DNA from: Bacillota bacterium
GTDB taxonomy: Bacteria > Bacillota > Clostridia > Christensenellales > UMGS416
DNA length: 64,000 nucleotides
NCBI GenBank assembly: GCA_023421955.1
Contig: JAEZSE010000018.1
Span: 7,337 to 71,336 of the forward strand
Direction of reading: 5' to 3'
Program-made: the position numbers and the translations under genes
Notes under the pieces: model-generated
Database searches by the model: none
What the model was told of the DNA's origin: nothing
What the model saw: only the letters and a program-made list of their open reading frames with translations
In this document: piece by piece, positions 20,603 through 29,743 of the stretch
Numbering within the stretch: the first letter of the stretch is position 1
Layout of the letters: every line of letters starts with the position of its first letter

Positions 20603-20642
20603 AAGTGTGATCTGCGCGTCGCCGTTCAAAGCGGCGAATAAT

Positions 20643-20671
20643 AATATACATGATCCATTAGATTCTGTCAA
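20643..20671 (-). promoter_or_regulatory. sigma-70-like promoter of the tRNA operon
   Basis: Minus strand reads TTGACA, 17-nt spacer, TATATT, ~45 nt upstream of tRNA-Pro. Confidence 0.5.
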
Positions 20672-20800
20672 CTACAAAATTGTGCCATGCCGATCAACAA
20701 CTTTTGTACTTGGCGACCCCACGGACCGAGATCCACGCGTGAAAACTTTATCCATTCTAATGACAAGATCAACTGGTGTCAACAACATTTTTGTTCTGGG

Positions 20801-21400
20801 TTATAGCTTCAACCACAAAGCGGGACGAACACCACCTGTACATCTGCCATCACTGATATTGCCTTTCAATATGTTGTTTCCCTGTATCCCTATATTACCA
20901 TCACCGTGGACGTACACAGCTTTAACACTGACGCGGCCAGGTGAGCGAAGCCACCACCAAGAAATCCCGTTACCCTCAAGCCTTGCGATTCGCTTGCTGT
21001 TGTTTTCATCCTTTCTTTCAAACCAATATCTCTGATTTTTTGCCGGGTTCATCAGTTTTGAACTGCTGTCACCGAAATATCGGCACACCACTTCCTCCAT
21101 GCTCAATAAAAACACTTTGTCTTGCGTATCAGCTCCGCCTTTTGTGCCATACCACTGATTGTCGGGATTTGTGTTCGTCACCGGAATGATTCTAGATTGA
21201 TCGGCTACAGGTAACTTAGCAACAAATTCACTGTTGAGATATTTTCTCAATGCGCAGTCCGCCCATGTCACATCCGTATAAGCGTCATGGTAAGCTCGCT
21301 GCTCTATAATAGATTCGGTTATCATCAAAGCCCTGTCGTTTTGTACGTCAAGCACTCGCCAATCATAGTTGCCAAATGATACTTTATCTCCAACGAGCAT
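20801..21400 (-). CDS. hypothetical protein, lower-GC gene next to the tRNA cluster (C-terminal WWLRSP...VRPALWL motif)
   Basis: Start MLVGDKV after GGGAGG. ~47% GC against ~59% in flanking DNA. No signal peptide. Confidence 0.45.
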   Translation of the reverse strand: MLVGDKVSFGNYDWRVLDVQNDRALMITESIIEQRAYHDAYTDVTWADCALRKYLNSEFVAKLPVADQSRIIPVTNTNPDNQWYGTKGGADTQDKVFLLSMEEVVCRYFGDSSSKLMNPAKNQRYWFERKDENNSKRIARLEGNGISWWWLRSPGRVSVKAVYVHGDGNIGIQGNNILKGNISDGRCTGGVRPALWLKL

Positions 21401-21438
21401 CGTTACCTCCCATAAATCTCTCGCTGCCTTTTTTTCGA

Positions 21439-21723
21439 TTAACAGCAATCCCCGTCGTCGCAGCCGCAACTTGGCTCCTTACCAGTCAGCATCCCTGCGA
21501 TGATCGCCGCGGCGCAGCCGACGCCTGGCTCCACAGTGATCGCACCAAAGGCGCAATTGCGGGCGCAAGCCCCGCATTCCATGCAGCGGTCACGATCAGT
21601 GACCTGGGCCTTTTTGCCCTCCAGCCGGAAAACGCCATGGGGGCACACAGCAACGCACAGTCCGCAGCCGGTGCACTTGGAACGATCGTATTCCAGCGTC
21701 GCCACATTCTTCAAATACATCAT
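21439..21723 (-). CDS. hgcB: HgcB, 2x[4Fe-4S] ferredoxin of the mercury methylation system
   Basis: Two CxxCxxCxxxCP motifs (CTGCGLCVAVCP, CMECGACARNCA) and a C-terminal ...SCGCDDGDCC vicinal-Cys tail. Starts 12 nt after the hgcA stop. GAGGAGG RBS. Confidence 0.8.
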   Translation of the reverse strand: MMYLKNVATLEYDRSKCTGCGLCVAVCPHGVFRLEGKKAQVTDRDRCMECGACARNCAFGAITVEPGVGCAAAIIAGMLTGKEPSCGCDDGDCC

Positions 21724-21735
21724 GCAATTACCTCC

Positions 21736-22953
21736 TCAATGGAACAACACAATAAAATCCTGTACGATCAAAAGAATCACGCCAAGCGCCGTCGCAATCA
21801 GCATCAGCGGCAGCGCGATCCTCATTTCACGATCCACACCGGACATCGACGTGAAAGTGGAGCTGCCGGTGAAGTTCATCGCGCCGTAAGCCGATAAGGA
21901 CGGCAGCACCAACACATATGCAATTGCTTTCATCCAGCTCTCCAACGGCATTGGCGGCACCCAGCCCGCCAGCAGGATCACGCCCACCGCCCACAGCATG
22001 CCAACCAGCGCGCCTTTGAACGAGAATGCCCTTCCGGGGATCCATGGCAGCAGCGCCGGTGTGAGCACGCAACCGGCAAGGATTGTGCCGAGATATGCCA
22101 CAAGATCCATGAAGCCATAGTGCCCGATGCCGATTGCGTTCAGGATGAACAGCACGCCGAACACAATCATCATGGGCTTCAGCGCCATTACGACCTCCAG
22201 CGGTGCGAGCACCAGCCGATCCCACAGTGTGAAGCGGACCCTCCGCATTTCCTCTGAAGCCTTCATTCCGGCTGCCAGATATGCTTTCAAGTCCTCCGCC
22301 CGCACCGGCCCGTATGTCACTTTGAACCCTGACTGCTTGGCAACCTCGTGTGCAGCCACACCCACCGCCCCAAGCTGGGGTAGGATCAGGATCCGGTGGC
22401 TCACGACCTGCTTCAGACGCGATTCTTCGATCCTGCGCAACAACTCCTCGGTGCCAAATGTGCCCTTCCCTGCTGCGCACCACACGTTGATGCCCTTGGT
22501 ATCGAGCACCAGGATCCAGGCGTTCACATTTGTGAGCTCCTTGCGCAGCCGGTCAAAGGTCATCTTGTAGTTGGCAGTCACCAGAACCGGCGATTTGTCA
22601 TCTGGGGCTCCCACGCAATACAAACCCGGGTCCACACTGTAATCCATCCTACCAATGTTCCAGCGGGCTTTCCAGGAGCCGAGCATATCGCCAAATGCCA
22701 GCGTTGTGTGCACTCGGGGCACTGGGCCGGTTGGTGTGTCTACAGTGCCTGCAATCCATTTGTGCCGGAGTTCCGAAGCATCACAACTGCTGGCGCAAGC
22801 TTGCCCAACCGTTTGGGTATCGTTTGTAGCATTTTGCGCCGGAGCCGAGCAACAGGGTTCGTGCTTTACCGAAGCGATTGCTGCGGTAGTTTGATTGCAG
22901 TCGTAGGGCTGCTTTCTCTTTCGCGGGGAGCCGGAACAACAGGAATCGGGCAT
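21736..22953 (-). CDS. hgcA: HgcA corrinoid protein (mercury methylation) with an extra Cys-rich N-terminal extension
   Basis: Cap-helix motif TKGINVWCAAGKGTF (N(V/I)WCA(A/G)GK). C-terminal ~5 TM helices. N-terminal ~65 aa contain CC, C, CC, C..C motifs. Start chosen at MPDSCC after GAGGTG. Confidence 0.85.
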   Translation of the reverse strand: MPDSCCSGSPRKRKQPYDCNQTTAAIASVKHEPCCSAPAQNATNDTQTVGQACASSCDASELRHKWIAGTVDTPTGPVPRVHTTLAFGDMLGSWKARWNIGRMDYSVDPGLYCVGAPDDKSPVLVTANYKMTFDRLRKELTNVNAWILVLDTKGINVWCAAGKGTFGTEELLRRIEESRLKQVVSHRILILPQLGAVGVAAHEVAKQSGFKVTYGPVRAEDLKAYLAAGMKASEEMRRVRFTLWDRLVLAPLEVVMALKPMMIVFGVLFILNAIGIGHYGFMDLVAYLGTILAGCVLTPALLPWIPGRAFSFKGALVGMLWAVGVILLAGWVPPMPLESWMKAIAYVLVLPSLSAYGAMNFTGSSTFTSMSGVDREMRIALPLMLIATALGVILLIVQDFIVLFH

Positions 22954-28517: not shown

Positions 28518-28547
28518 CTGCATTACAAGGCATTAAGCACCATATGA

Positions 28548-28585
28548 GACCTCCCGCCCATCCACGGTGCGGGAGGCCTTTTTTG
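28548..28585 (+). terminator. rho-independent terminator
   Basis: cctcccgc / gcgggagg stem followed by TTTTTT. Confidence 0.55.
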
Positions 28586-28655
28586 TTGGAGCTGCCGTTT
28601 TACACCATCGCGAGAATCTGATAGAATCCAAGGATCAATTAACAAGGGGATAAGT

Positions 28656-28757
28656 ATGAACATTTCGATACTGGTCATCGCATTGGGGGCAGTTGCCGCC
28701 CTGATTTGTGTGGGAGCGGCTGTGGTGATTGTGTTTGTGGTCAACAAAAAGAAGTGA
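28656..28757 (+). CDS. candidate 33-aa single-TM peptide
   Basis: AGGGGA RBS. MNISILVIALGAVAALICVGAAVVIVFVVNKKK. Confidence 0.3.
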   Translation: MNISILVIALGAVAALICVGAAVVIVFVVNKKK

Positions 28758-28974
28758 GCACCTCGCAGGCAGAAAATGGTCATCAGCAACCCACCGCAAG
28801 GGCCAGGTGGTGGGTTTTCTATCCTATTCCGGAGGCGCTCGCAGTTTCACATCTCGCACTAGCACTCATATGATATAGCAGAAGGACCATGCGGGTATAT
28901 CGCGGATGATGATCAGTCTCCATATCACCATACCCGGGGAGCCTTCGAAATCATAAGGCAAGGTGAGGAAAATG

Positions 28975-29448
28975 GCATACTACTCCCGCGATGATCACCC
29001 TGAATCTTACAGGAAAGATGCACAAAAGGTTGCCTTGAATGCTTCAACTGGCGGTGCAGGCCCATTGCCGGTCATCACAACGCTGCTGGCTGACCCGATC
29101 AATGTGGTGTCCGTTGGGATTGACACCTCCGAATTCAGGAGGCCGGATATCCTGTTGACATTCACAGGCATCGTCAATCTGCCGTTGGGCATATCGGTCA
29201 CACTGAACTTCCAGATCTTCCGCTCGACAGATGATGGCGCAGCGCCCGTGGGCTCCACCTACACGTTCTCCACATTGGTCAACGTGCTGGAATCGGAAGC
29301 GTTCTCGTTCCAGTTCTTTGACACGAACCTGGAGCCCAACAACTACACCTACACGGTGCAATTGAACACCAACTCCATCATCGACATCACCCCAGGACTG
29401 ACCATCACCAACGCGACGCTGAGCGCACTGGCTGTGGATCGTGCCTGA
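28975..29448 (+). CDS. hypothetical beta-rich protein
   Basis: GGTGAGGAAA RBS. No TM helix or signal peptide. No family assignable from sequence alone. Confidence 0.45.
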   Translation, partial: AYYSRDDHPESYRKDAQKVALNASTGGAGPLPVITTLLADPINVVSVGIDTSEFRRPDILLTFTGIVNLPLGISVTLNFQIFRSTDDGAAPVGSTYTFSTLVNVLESEAFSFQFFDTNLEPNNYTYTVQLNTNSIIDITPGLTITNATLSALAVDRA

Positions 29449-29743
29449 AGAGAGCTCGTTCAGCCCTTGAGCAGGTTGCCTGCCCAAGGGTATACATAAT
29501 AACACCATCGACAAATCATTGAATCGCCTTTTATGGATTATTCCCATTGGAACATCGTATCTCCATTCTGAGCAGACGCATGTTACTGCAACATAAACAA
29601 TAACAAAAAGAGATACAAGCCCATCAAGGCACCTGTTTTGTAGCATTTGCTGAGATCAGCAGAAGATCAGAGACCAAATAGAGACCAAAACTTACCCATC
29701 AAAACGCAAAAACCCTAAGAACCGCATGATTCCTAGGGTTTTT

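What the first reader, a model, noticed from the sequence alone, without database searches (positions are those of the whole stretch)
20603..29743. tRNA-bounded metal(loid) locus coupling ars genes to hgcAB
Between an 8-tRNA operon and tRNA-Arg lies a co-directional gene string: arsR2, ArsP-like permease, three small Cys-rich ORFs, arsR, acr3, arsC, hgcA, hgcB. Next come an AKR-ferredoxin fusion and, adjacent to the tRNA cluster, a lower-GC DUF gene. The arsR-acr3-arsC-hgcA-hgcB spacing is 12, 25 and 233 nt with no terminator U-tract, which suggests Hg methylation is co-transcribed and co-regulated with arsenic detoxification under ArsR control. tRNA flanks hint at acquisition, but I see no integrase and no clear GC shift apart from the gene at 20801-21400.
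Basis: partly seen in the sequence, partly recalled or inferred. Interest (0 to 1): 0.7.

Follow-up and report, generated by a model that had tools for sequence, protein, structure and literature searches.

The report
Arsenic operon carrying mercury-methylation genes
An uncultured anaerobic Clostridia-type bacterium carries its mercury-methylating genes (hgcAB) at the tail end of an ordinary arsenic-resistance operon; the genes are real, but this arsenic-mercury linkage is already published and the block is an old chromosomal neighbourhood, not a tRNA-borne island.

Summary
On the minus strand these are arsR2, an ArsP_1-family permease, three 43-46 aa Cys-rich ORFs, arsR, acr3, an LMW-PTP arsC, hgcA, hgcB and DUF6273. 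An AKR-ferredoxin fusion and DUF4489 lie on the plus strand. An 8-tRNA operon and tRNA-Arg flank the block.

There appear to be two units. arsR2-permease-sORFs has its own promoter, three conserved palindromes and a terminator. arsR-acr3-arsC-hgcA-hgcB starts at an 11/12 sigma-70-like promoter with an operator palindrome.

ArsR control of hgcAB is supported only by comparison:
- Four related genomes keep the order, two with arsC-hgcA gaps of 31-38 nt.
- Of 80 species-representative hgcA loci, 30 have a co-directional homologue of this ArsR upstream.
- 13 of those also have co-directional acr3 or arsC.
- The promoter-operator layout recurs in 14 other Firmicutes loci.

This linkage is already published (McDaniel 2020; Gionfriddo 2022/2023; Peterson 2025).

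The tRNA-island idea fails. Relatives down to 63% HgcA identity keep the block beside the same tRNA operon. No upstream tRNA-Arg was found where checked, and there is no tRNA-end repeat or GC shift.

One puzzle remains. The 260-nt arsC-hgcA spacer is a structured element, inverted in one relative and absent in two.

The parts
19889..20602 (-). Operon of 8 tRNA genes (Pro-Glu-Met-Asp-Phe-Thr-Tyr-Leu in transcription order). Two 11/12 promoter-like sites lie upstream at 20643-20671 and 20754-20782.
   Evidence: ARAGORN, Rfam, promoter scan. The same cluster lies downstream of hgcB in L002 and L004, and in L091 and L090 as far as those contigs extend.
20801..21400 (-). DUF6273 gene, 199 aa, 45% GC. 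It starts 38 nt after hgcB and has a GGGAGG RBS.
   Evidence: Pfam PF19789, E=9e-39. GC. Present at 78-85% identity in L002, L004 and L090; replaced by a Fer4 protein in L091; absent from all 80 surveyed hgcA loci.
21439..21723 (-). hgcB: 2x[4Fe-4S] ferredoxin with the CMECGA motif and a C-terminal CC.
   Evidence: NF040864, 132.9 bits against a cutoff of 99. Sequence.
21736..22953 (-). hgcA: corrinoid protein with the cap-helix motif NVWCAAGK, a transmembrane C-terminal half, and a Cys-rich N-terminal extension (MPDSCC...).
   Evidence: NF040863, 484.7 bits against 275, covering profile positions 1-324 of 325. Invariant motif in alignment A2. Start codon conserved in three genomes. The N-terminal CC/CU extension was described by Haft 2022.
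22954..23213 (-). arsC-hgcA spacer: a 13-bp hairpin directly after the arsC stop, followed by a rod-like imperfect palindrome of about 177 nt. No U-tract, no promoter-like site, no Rfam match.
   Evidence: Fold of -100.8 kcal/mol, z=-3.0. Scans. The homologous segment is inverted in L002 and absent in L004 and L091.
23214..23624 (-). arsC: LMW-PTP-type arsenate reductase with a CTHNSCRS P-loop, GCGVECP and DP.
   Evidence: Pfam LMWPc. Below the NCBIfam ArsC cutoffs. Best PDB match is 3t38, an arsenate reductase, with the same GCGxxCP spacing; every top hit is an arsenate reductase.
23650..24708 (-). acr3: arsenite efflux permease.
   Evidence: TIGR00832, 390.2 bits against a cutoff of 282.8.
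24721..25074 (-). arsR: ArsR/SmtB repressor, 117 aa, with an alpha3 motif SC-GELCAC (Cys29, Cys33, Cys35) and a C-terminal CICK..CC tail.
   Evidence: NF033788, 101 bits. Alignment with hgcA-adjacent ArsR homologues. Start conserved.
25090..25146 (-). arsR promoter and candidate operators: -35 TTGACA and -10 TATACT (25117-25145); an 8-4-8 palindrome ACATTGAC-N4-GTCAATGT over the -35 (ATTGAC-N4-GTCAAT matched at 25131-25146); a second palindrome ATCAATGTGTTGA in the leader (25090-25102).
   Evidence: Conserved in L002 and L004 and in 14 other Firmicutes loci with an arsR upstream of hgcA (A6). The same layout is found on a stand-alone ars operon in L011.
25161..25217 (-). Terminator-like long hairpin followed by a U-rich tract (25147-25160). 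It ends the upstream arsR2 unit.
   Evidence: Fold of -33.3 kcal/mol, z=-2.3. Conserved in L002.
25236..25718 (-). Three small Cys-rich ORFs: sORF1 25587-25718 (hydrophobic N-terminus, EQEYCKVECIGYQ); sORF2 25408-25545 (..DHFCKLECREYKEQYCC); sORF3 25236-25376 (NCC...GCGC...NRCC).
   Evidence: Frames, lengths and Cys residues are conserved in L002, and sORF2 also in L004. Called as genes in public assemblies. No Pfam or NCBIfam family. Only 4 relatives among 1.84 billion representatives.
25738..26835 (-). ArsP_1-family (PF03773) permease with an FCACG motif and a central loop carrying five Cys pairs. Substrate unknown; probably efflux of a thiophilic metal(loid).
   Evidence: Pfam E=2e-39. The best NCBIfam matches, SO_0444 Cu/Zn efflux (118 bits) and SaoE (86 bits), are both below cutoff; arsenic_eff scores 22.5 against 100. 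Cys map.
26860..26875 (-). Palindrome ATCGTA-N4-TACGAT directly upstream of the permease: candidate ArsR2 operator.
   Evidence: Perfectly conserved in L002 and L004 within an otherwise diverged intergenic region.
26923..27228 (-). arsR2: second ArsR/SmtB-family regulator, 101 aa.
   Evidence: HTH_5. NF033788, 59.9 bits against a cutoff of 55.
27239..27286 (-). arsR2 promoter (TTTACA-17-TATAAT, 27258-27286) with two more ATCGxA-N4-xACGAT palindromes (27239-27254 and 27263-27278). It lies in the divergent region shared with the AKR gene.
   Evidence: 5 matches found, 0.98 expected. Conserved in three genomes.
27402..28517 (+). Aldo/keto reductase with a C-terminal 4Fe-4S dicluster domain, divergent from arsR2.
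   Evidence: Pfam. The 371-aa start is the one used by gene callers. 94% identical in L002 and 83% in L004.
28963..29448 (+). DUF4489 gene, preceded by a 33-aa transmembrane-peptide ORF at 28656-28757.
   Evidence: Pfam PF14879 and translation. Both are present in L002; DUF4489 is also present in L091.
29708..29867 (-). Self-contained tRNA-Arg(ACG) unit: promoter-like site 29839-29867, tRNA 29744-29820, and a 16-bp terminator hairpin plus U-tract at 29708-29743.

Best explanation
This is a vertically inherited chromosomal metal(loid) neighbourhood of an uncultured Clostridia-type (Bacillota) lineage. It consists of two adjacent, co-directional units, each headed by an ArsR/SmtB-family regulator.

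Unit 1 is arsR2, an ArsP_1-family permease and three small Cys-rich peptides. It starts at its own promoter, carries three conserved ATCGTA-N4-TACGAT palindromes (inferred ArsR2 operators) and ends at a hairpin followed by a U-tract.

Unit 2 is a canonical ars operon, arsR-acr3-arsC, whose distal genes are hgcA-hgcB and possibly DUF6273. Transcription starts at the arsR promoter. That promoter's -35 box lies inside an 8-4-8 palindrome, and a second palindrome covers the leader.

The inferred mechanism is as follows. ArsR, which has the alpha3 motif C-x3-C-x-C, represses this promoter. As(III), or another thiophilic ligand, releases it. Acr3, ArsC and, by read-through, the corrinoid/ferredoxin pair HgcAB are then expressed together.

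In this genome and its closest relative, a structured element of about 225 nt has been inserted between arsC and hgcA. It may weaken or modulate the read-through.

Shown: gene identities, order, spacing, motifs, and conservation of synteny and promoter layout.
Inferred: operator function, the identity of the ligand, co-transcription across the spacer, and Hg-methylating activity.
For: - Gene identities come from curated HMMs.
- In the 9.4-kb scan, the five 11/12 promoter-like sites fall exactly upstream of arsR2, arsR, the tRNA operon (two sites) and tRNA-Arg. None lies between arsC and hgcA, and no coding-strand terminator lies there either.
- The same strong sites occur at the homologous positions for arsR and the tRNA operon in L002 and L004, and for arsR2 in L004 (10/12 in L002).
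- L002, L004 and L091 (87%, 81% and 63% HgcA identity) keep arsR2-ArsP_1-...-arsR-...-acr3-arsC-hgcA-hgcB. The short contig L090 (73%) keeps only hgcA-hgcB-DUF6273 and its arsC side is not held. The arsC-hgcA gap is 38 nt in L004 and 31 nt in L091.
- In the isolate Desulfitobacterium sp. THU1 the order is the same, and the first start codon of the hgcA ORF follows the arsC stop directly.
- Of 80 species-representative hgcA loci, 30 have a co-directional homologue of this ArsR within 4 kb upstream, 22 of them directly adjacent. Thirteen also carry co-directional acr3 and/or arsC.
- The CxC pair of the alpha3 motif is conserved across almost all of these ArsRs.
- The promoter-operator layout is shared by this window, L002, L004 and 14 further loci, and by a stand-alone ars operon.
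- Published experiments show that an ArsR-like regulator is co-transcribed with hgcAB, controls it and responds to arsenic in P. mercurii ND132. In a lake metatranscriptome, presence of arsR goes with lower hgcA transcription.
Against: - There are no transcript data for this organism.
- The 260-nt spacer folds at -100.8 kcal/mol, with a 13-bp hairpin directly after the arsC stop. It could pause, process or terminate transcripts, or carry a promoter that the sigma-70 consensus scan does not recognise.
- The spacer's orientation differs in the nearest relative. There, a weak 9/12 promoter-like site and a weak hairpin-plus-T site do appear inside it.
- The arsC scores below the NCBIfam equivalog cutoffs.
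- The ArsR ligand is inferred from a motif only. The ND132 regulator also responds to S-adenosylhomocysteine.
Confidence: 0.65

Rival explanations
1. hgcAB is its own transcription unit. The inserted 260-nt structured spacer insulates it from the ars operon (as a hairpin or processing site) and supplies or hides a promoter. Hg methylation would then be independent of arsenic in this genome, and the adjacency would be only a relic.
For: - The gap is 260 nt here, against 31-38 nt in L004 and L091.
- A 13-bp hairpin lies immediately after the arsC stop, and the spacer has a very stable fold.
- The inverted copy in L002 shows a 9/12 promoter-like site 28 nt upstream of hgcA and a weak hairpin-plus-T site after arsC.
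- L090 also has a long structured spacer upstream of hgcA.
Against: - No promoter-like site at 9/12 or better lies on the coding strand of the window's spacer, and no U-tract follows the hairpin.
- Apart from the RBS, nothing in the spacer is conserved in position among the three genomes.
- The ancestral state in relatives is a tight operon.
Confidence: 0.25
2. The interval between the tRNA operon and tRNA-Arg is a horizontally acquired genomic island that integrated at a tRNA gene.
For: - tRNA genes lie on both sides, and the 3' end of tRNA-Arg faces the block.
- DUF6273 is low in GC.
- Synteny breaks just beyond DUF4489 and AKR in relatives.
- From general knowledge: hgcAB is patchily distributed across taxa.
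Against: - No integrase was found among the genes scanned.
- No direct repeat of a tRNA 3' end lies in 19800-30000.
- GC is 49-60% across the block against 54% for the window.
- The block plus the 8-tRNA operon is conserved in L002, L004 and L091, and in part in L090, down to 63% HgcA identity.
- Block and flank genes have diverged to a similar degree: LCP is 81%/77% and HgcA 87%/81% identical in L002/L004.
- tRNA-Arg is absent from the upstream flank of L002 and L004 and from the upstream sequence held for L091.
Confidence: 0.04
3. The ArsR at the head of the operon does not sense arsenic specifically. It might sense SAH, Hg(II), Sb, or thiol or redox stress. On this view acr3 and arsC are passengers in an hgcAB regulon rather than the reverse.
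For: - The ND132 hgcAB regulator responds to SAH as well as to arsenic.
- 17 of the 30 loci with a co-directional arsR upstream of hgcA have no acr3 or arsC nearby.
- This ArsR clade has an extra Cys-rich C-terminal tail.
Against: - The ELCAC-type alpha3 Cys motif is the classical As(III) site. This rests on established knowledge of R773 and pI258 ArsR, and was checked here only as a motif.
- The same clade, with the same operator layout, heads a stand-alone arsR-acr3-arsC operon in L011.
Confidence: 0.2

Closest known systems
ArsR-like regulator co-transcribed with hgcAB in Pseudodesulfovibrio (P. hydrargyri BerOc1; P. mercurii ND132 ArsR2). Sources: Goni-Urriza 2020; Gionfriddo 2022/2023.
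   Same: An ArsR/SmtB-family regulator lies upstream of hgcAB and in the same direction. The cited work showed experimentally that such a regulator controls hgcAB and responds to arsenic.
   Different: In ND132 no other ars genes sit with hgcAB, and homologues of ArsR2 were found only in Desulfovibrionaceae. Here the regulator belongs to a Firmicutes clade that also heads ordinary ars operons, and acr3 and arsC lie between it and hgcA.
Published hgcAB gene neighbourhoods containing acr3, arsC, arsM or arsR. Sources: McDaniel 2020 Fig. 6; Zhang 2023; Peterson 2025.
   Same: acr3 and arsC immediately flank hgcAB and an arsR-like gene lies nearby. The survey made here finds the same pattern in 13 of 80 species-representative loci.
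   Different: This locus has the full order arsR-acr3-arsC-hgcA-hgcB, a second arsR2-permease unit upstream and an inserted structured spacer. The passages of those papers that were read did not mention a shared promoter-operator layout across Firmicutes; the papers were not read in full.
Canonical Gram-positive ars operon arsR-(arsB/acr3)-arsC with a thioredoxin-coupled LMW-PTP ArsC (S. aureus pI258 and B. subtilis type; C. glutamicum ArsC1').
   Same: The gene order is repressor, efflux pump, reductase. The ArsR has an ELCxC motif. The ArsC has the CX5R P-loop and resolving cysteines, and its best structural relative is 3t38. The Acr3 equivalog model is passed.
   Different: The operon continues into hgcAB. 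ArsC is below the NCBIfam equivalog cutoffs. ArsR has an extra Cys-rich tail.
SaoE and SO_0444-family efflux permeases with neighbouring 'CC-COOH' small proteins (Haft 2022).
   Same: The permease of unit 1 is from the PF03773 family and has a CxC motif where those families have CSC. It is followed by small proteins that end in CC.
   Different: It scores far below the SaoE and SO_0444 cutoffs (86 against 325; 118 against 300). The small ORFs match no family. No other SAO genes are present.

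Membership tests
HgcAB mercury-methylation gene pair | HgcA corrinoid-binding domain with the cap-helix motif N(V/I)WCA(A/G)GK. | tested here: met
   GINVWCAAGKGTFGT is present. N156 to K163 are invariant in the 14-sequence alignment A2. NF040863 scores 484.7 bits against a cutoff of 275.
HgcAB mercury-methylation gene pair | A C-terminal transmembrane domain on HgcA, and an adjacent HgcB with two CX2CX2CX3C clusters and a C-terminal Cys pair. | tested here: met
   The HgcA profile is matched over positions 1-324 of 325. 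hgcB lies 12 nt downstream, scores 132.9 bits on NF040864 against 99, and has CMECGACARNC and a ...GDCC C-terminus.
HgcAB mercury-methylation gene pair | Production of methylmercury from Hg(II). | not testable with these tools
   The organism is uncultured and known only from metagenome assemblies.
ars operon (arsR-acr3-arsC) | ACR3-family arsenite efflux permease. | tested here: met
   TIGR00832 equivalog, 390.2 bits against a cutoff of 282.8.
ars operon (arsR-acr3-arsC) | Arsenate reductase of the LMW-PTP type: CX5R P-loop, catalytic Asp and two resolving Cys. | tested here: inconclusive
   The motifs CTHNSCRS, GCGVECP and DP are present. The top PDB hits are all arsenate reductases (3t38, E=6e-18). 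However, all three NCBIfam ArsC models score below cutoff (72.7 against 215; 62.5 against 174; 61.9 against 158).
ars operon (arsR-acr3-arsC) | ArsR/SmtB repressor with an As(III)-binding cysteine cluster and an operator at its own promoter. | tested here: inconclusive
   The family model is passed (101 bits against 55). The motif SC-GELCAC is present and its CxC pair is conserved across almost all of the aligned ArsRs. Palindromes overlap the promoter and are conserved. Binding of As(III) and of DNA was not tested.
ArsR-controlled hgcAB (ND132 type) | arsR and hgcAB lie on one transcript, and expression responds to arsenic. | not testable with these tools
   Only indirect evidence is available: spacing, promoter and terminator scans and tight junctions in relatives.
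ArsR-controlled hgcAB (ND132 type) | The regulator is orthologous to P. mercurii ArsR2. | not tested
The paper reports ArsR2 homologues only in Desulfovibrionaceae, so orthology is unlikely.
tRNA-associated genomic island | An integrase or recombinase next to the tRNA, and a direct repeat of the tRNA 3' end at the far border. | tested here: not met
   No integrase domain was found among the block or neighbouring genes. No tRNA-end repeat lies in 19800-30000.
tRNA-associated genomic island | Presence/absence polymorphism among relatives and deviant base composition. | tested here: not met
   The block is conserved next to the same tRNA operon in L002, L004 and L091, and in part in L090. Divergence is similar to that of the flanks. 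Only DUF6273 deviates in GC. A relative that lacks the block could not be found.
ArsP methylarsenite efflux permease | Membership of PF03773, together with the functional ArsP signature and the curated arsenic-efflux model. | tested here: not met
   PF03773 is matched (E=2e-39). NF037962 arsenic_eff scores 22.5 against a cutoff of 100. The better matches are metal-efflux families, and those are also below cutoff. The conserved Cys motif is CxC rather than a vicinal pair; the vicinal-pair criterion is recalled from the ArsP literature and was not checked here.

The most novel reading that the evidence does not exclude
The roughly 225-nt rod-like element between arsC and hgcA might be an orientation-dependent genetic insulator or switch. 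It is present in one orientation here, in the opposite orientation in the nearest relative, and absent in two more distant relatives. On this reading, a mobile or invertible structured element sets how much ars-operon read-through reaches hgcAB. Coupling of Hg methylation to arsenic would then be tunable, lineage by lineage or even cell by cell.
Probability: 0.07. Interest if true: 0.6.

Novelty: new member of a known kind. Interest (0 to 1): 0.3.

Why it matters
The native function and the regulation of hgcAB are open questions in mercury biogeochemistry. A leading published hypothesis links hgcAB to arsenic.

This locus and its relatives are a particularly explicit example of that link, because hgcAB sits as the last genes of a textbook arsR-acr3-arsC operon. 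The same ArsR clade and the same promoter-operator layout recur across many Firmicutes methylators.

That adds comparative weight to the hypothesis. It also points to a cultured strain, Desulfitobacterium sp. THU1, in which the idea could be tested. It does not open a new question.

Tried and rejected
- **Riboswitch or known RNA in the spacer.** An Rfam E-value scan of 19800-30000 returned only tRNAs.
- **Spacer as a multi-copy repeat.** No second copy was found in the 64-kb window or in any fetched locus. The core gave no exact matches in JGI metagenome contigs, but that collection seems to lack this lineage, so the negative result is weak.
- **Island test through homologues of the flanking LCP gene.** Hits at 50-58% identity are paralogous or not syntenic, and the 76% hit sits at a contig end. 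The test was inconclusive: no relative that lacks the block was found.
- **Naming the organism.** Cluster look-ups gave no names. Related records are labelled only 'Bacillota bacterium' or 'Eubacteriales' MAGs.
- **Small ORFs.** There is no Pfam or NCBIfam family, and only four relatives were found among 1.84 billion representatives. Codon-position substitution counts do not show clear purifying selection outside the Cys motif, so coding status rests on conserved frame, length, RBS and cysteines.
- **Exact arsR operator palindrome elsewhere.** It is unique to the arsR promoter in the window. One 1-mismatch match lies inside arsC and is probably chance.
- **Apparent overlap of arsC and hgcA in L036.** This was an artefact: a tblastn alignment ran through the arsC stop codon in the same reading frame.

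Full report
**What is there**

The interval 20603-29743 lies between an operon of eight tRNA genes (19889-20602, minus strand) and a single tRNA-Arg(ACG) (29744-29820, minus strand) (Rfam). On the minus strand it carries, in transcription order:
- arsR2 (26923-27228);
- an ArsP_1-family permease (25738-26835);
- three small Cys-rich ORFs (25236-25718);
- arsR (24721-25074);
- acr3 (23650-24708);
- an LMW-PTP arsC (23214-23624);
- hgcA (21736-22953);
- hgcB (21439-21723);
- a DUF6273 gene (20801-21400).

On the plus strand lie an aldo/keto-reductase/4Fe-4S fusion (27402-28517), a 33-aa transmembrane-peptide ORF (28656-28757) and a DUF4489 gene (28963-29448).

The curated equivalog models are passed clearly:
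- HgcA: 485 bits against a cutoff of 275.
- HgcB: 133 bits against 99.
- Acr3: 390 bits against 283.

HgcA has the invariant cap-helix motif NVWCAAGK. HgcB has CMECGA and a C-terminal CC.

ArsC falls below the NCBIfam cutoffs. It does have the CX5R P-loop, and it shares the GCGxxCP spacing with its best PDB match, 3t38. All its PDB relatives are arsenate reductases.

One correction applies. The conserved hgcA start is the ATG at 22953, because the same RBS and start sequence occur in three genomes and gene callers agree. The arsC-hgcA gap is therefore 260 nt, not 233. The resulting N-terminal MPDSCC extension matches the CC/CU extension described for HgcA by Haft 2022.

**Transcription-unit anatomy**

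In a consensus scan of 20500-29900, five 11/12 sigma-70-like sites fall at the positions where promoters would be expected:
- upstream of arsR2 (27258-27286);
- upstream of arsR (25117-25145);
- upstream of the tRNA operon (two sites);
- upstream of tRNA-Arg.

No promoter-like site lies on the coding strand between arsC and hgcA, and no hairpin followed by a U-tract lies there either.

A long hairpin followed by a U-rich tract (25147-25217) separates the third small ORF from the arsR promoter. It is conserved in L002. I therefore read two units.

Unit 1 is arsR2, the permease and sORF1-3. It carries three 16-bp palindromes, ATCGTA-N4-TACGAT. Two lie at the arsR2 promoter and one directly upstream of the permease. 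The window has 5 matches against 0.98 expected. These sites are essentially invariant across three genomes within otherwise diverged intergenic DNA. They are candidate ArsR2 operators.

Unit 2 is arsR-acr3-arsC-[spacer]-hgcA-hgcB(-DUF6273). The -35 box of its promoter lies inside an 8-4-8 palindrome, ACATTGAC-N4-GTCAATGT. A second palindrome, ATCAATGTGTTGA, covers the leader.

**Comparative evidence for ArsR control of hgcAB**

The window matches a metagenome contig exactly. Related MAG and metagenome contigs have HgcA identities of 87% (L002), 81% (L004), 73% (L090) and 63% (L091).
- L002, L004 and L091 keep the same order, arsR2-ArsP_1-...-arsR-...-acr3-arsC-hgcA-hgcB.
- In L002, L004, L090 and L091 the same tRNA operon (Pro-Glu-Met-Asp...) follows, as far as each contig extends.
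- The short contig L090 holds only hgcA-hgcB-DUF6273-tRNA-Pro.

The arsC-hgcA gap is only 38 nt in L004 and 31 nt in L091. Co-transcription is hard to avoid in those two genomes.

I fetched 80 species-representative genomes whose HgcA is closest to this one. Their neighbourhoods break down as follows:
- 30 have a co-directional homologue (32-60% identity) of this ArsR within 4 kb upstream of hgcA.
- 22 of those 30 have it directly adjacent.
- 13 also have co-directional acr3 and/or arsC, in the order arsR-hgcAB-acr3-arsC or arsR-acr3-arsC-hgcAB.

One of the 13 is the isolate Desulfitobacterium sp. THU1. There the first start codon of the hgcA ORF directly follows the arsC stop.

Almost all of these regulators share the CxC pair of the alpha3 motif (S/C)GE(L/K)CAC. 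The window's clade adds Cys29 and a C-terminal CICK..CC tail.

Their promoters share one layout: CATATTGACA...TCGAT.TGA, then CATATAAT, then ATATCGAT...TAGAT.TGAGG, then ATG. The window, L002 and L004 align to this layout (A6). The same layout heads a stand-alone arsR-acr3-arsC operon in L011, where hgcAB has a MarR-type regulator instead.

So this ArsR belongs to the ordinary Firmicutes ars-operon repressor clade, and hgcAB has repeatedly become part of its regulon.

**What is already known**

- McDaniel 2020 shows hgcAB neighbourhoods with acr3, arsC, arsM and arsR.
- Gionfriddo 2022/2023 show that ArsR2 of P. mercurii ND132 is co-transcribed with hgcAB, controls it and responds to arsenic and to SAH.
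- Zhang 2023 finds an arsR-like gene within three ORFs upstream of hgcA in 14 of 31 confirmed methylators.
- Peterson 2025 links the presence of arsR to lower hgcA transcription and notes acr3 and arsC nearby.

This locus is a new and rather explicit member of that kind.

**The tRNA-island idea**

This idea is not supported.
- No integrase domain was found in the genes scanned.
- No repeat of a tRNA 3' end lies in the interval.
- GC is 49-60% across the block against 54.4% for the window. Only DUF6273 stands out, at 45%.
- The block stays attached to the 8-tRNA operon in L002, L004 and L091, down to 63% HgcA identity, and hgcA-hgcB-DUF6273 does so in L090. The LCP flank is also kept in L002 and L004.
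- Block and flank genes have diverged to a similar degree. For example, in L002 and L004 respectively, LCP is 81% and 77% identical and HgcA is 87% and 81%.
- tRNA-Arg is absent from the upstream flank of L002 and L004 and from the upstream sequence held for L091. Synteny breaks beyond AKR and DUF4489 instead.
- tRNA-Arg is a self-contained unit with its own promoter and a strong terminator.

I could not find a relative that lacks the block, so an ancient acquisition cannot be excluded.

**The unexplained spacer**

The 260-nt arsC-hgcA spacer consists of a 13-bp hairpin directly after the arsC stop and a rod-like imperfect palindrome of about 177 nt. It folds at -100.8 kcal/mol, z=-3.0.
- In L002 the homologous segment of about 235 nt occupies the same junction in the opposite orientation. 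The 65-nt core is 91% identical as a reverse complement, and the flanking parts also align in the inverted sense.
- The segment is absent in L004 and L091.
- L090 has a different structured spacer.
- There is no Rfam match, no second copy in any sequence held and no hit in JGI metagenomes.
- Two independent assemblies of each species show a single orientation, so there is no sign of active flipping.

The most economical reading is that a small palindromic element was inserted in the common ancestor of the window and L002 and was later inverted, or that it inserted twice. Whether it damps read-through into hgcAB is open. This is the main reason my confidence in co-transcription in this genome is about 0.65 and not higher.

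**Unit 1**

The permease matches Pfam ArsP_1. It does not reach the NCBIfam arsenic-efflux model. Its best matches, also below cutoff, are the SO_0444 Cu/Zn-efflux and SaoE families.

It has an FCACG motif at the position where those families have CSC, and a loop with five Cys pairs.

The three small ORFs keep frame, length and cysteines in L002, and sORF2 does so in L004 too. Two of them end in CC. Their family is tiny.

A role in efflux or buffering of a thiophilic metal(loid) is plausible but untested. 'ArsP-like' holds only at the Pfam level.

**Verdict**

- Co-regulation of hgcAB with arsenic detoxification under ArsR is supported by comparative evidence, but it is already published as a concept.
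- The locus is a new member of a known kind and of modest interest.
- The structured, orientation-variable spacer and the arsR2-permease-peptide unit are the only features that are really new.

Noticed in passing
window 22954-23213; L002 9745-10000: The arsC-hgcA spacer is a structured palindromic element of about 225 nt (fold -100.8 kcal/mol). It lies in the opposite orientation at the same junction in the closest relative. It is absent in L004 and L091, where the gaps are 38 and 31 nt. L090 has a different structured spacer.
   Followed up: partly
window 26860-26875, 27239-27254, 27263-27278: Three ATCGTA-N4-TACGAT palindromes lie at the arsR2 promoter and in front of the ArsP_1 permease. 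They are nearly invariant in L002 and L004 although the surrounding DNA has diverged. They are candidate ArsR2 operators, and the region is shared with the divergent AKR-ferredoxin gene.
   Followed up: partly
window 25236-25718: Three conserved small ORFs of 43-46 aa follow the permease. Two share a CKxEC..Y motif and two end in CC. They match no known family, and only four relatives were found among 1.84 billion representative proteins.
   Followed up: partly
window 25090-25146; alignment A6 of 17 loci: One promoter-operator layout is shared by hgcA-associated arsR genes in 14 other Firmicutes genomes and by a stand-alone ars operon (L011 15340-15440). It consists of a -35 box inside a palindrome, a -10 box, and a second palindrome running into the RBS. 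The paper passages I read did not describe it.
   Followed up: partly
L091 5939-7024: In the relative with 63% HgcA identity, the acr3 at the same operon position is only 33% identical to the window's Acr3. Its neighbours ArsC, ArsR, ArsP_1 and ArsR2 are 71-77% identical. This looks like replacement of the pump gene in place. A Thioredoxin_3 gene is also inserted there; L004 has a Thioredoxin_3 gene plus a second ArsP_1.
   Followed up: no
L006 9301-9747; L011 9478-9978: Some related hgcAB pairs are preceded by a MarR-type regulator instead of ArsR. The one in L011 ends in CC and contains an SCCGG motif.
   Followed up: no
L036 8307-11502 (Desulfitobacterium sp. THU1): A cultured isolate has arsR-acr3-arsC-hgcA-hgcB, with the first start codon (GTG) of the hgcA ORF directly after the arsC stop codon. 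It would be a tractable system for testing co-transcription.
   Followed up: partly
window 21736-22953 (N-terminus): HgcA has a Cys-rich N-terminal extension of about 75 aa (MPDSCC...CC...C.SSC). It is conserved across this Clostridia clade and is the non-selenocysteine counterpart of the CU extension reported by Haft 2022.
   Followed up: partly
window 11614-14158: A homocysteine-S-methyltransferase/MTHFR fusion (12389-14158) and a pterin-binding-domain gene (11614-12426) lie about 7-9 kb from hgcAB. They keep that position in L002 and L004. This may be ordinary methionine metabolism; any link to methyl supply for HgcA is speculation.
   Followed up: no
window 28656-28757: A 33-aa single-transmembrane peptide ORF (MNISILVIALGAVAALICVGAAVVIVFVVNKKK) with a promoter-like site upstream lies between the AKR and DUF4489 genes. 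It is also called as a gene in L002.
   Followed up: no
window 20801-21400: The DUF6273 gene is the only low-GC gene of the block (45%). It is kept between hgcB and the tRNA operon in three relatives, replaced by a Fer4 protein in L091, and found next to none of the 80 other hgcAB pairs.
   Followed up: partly
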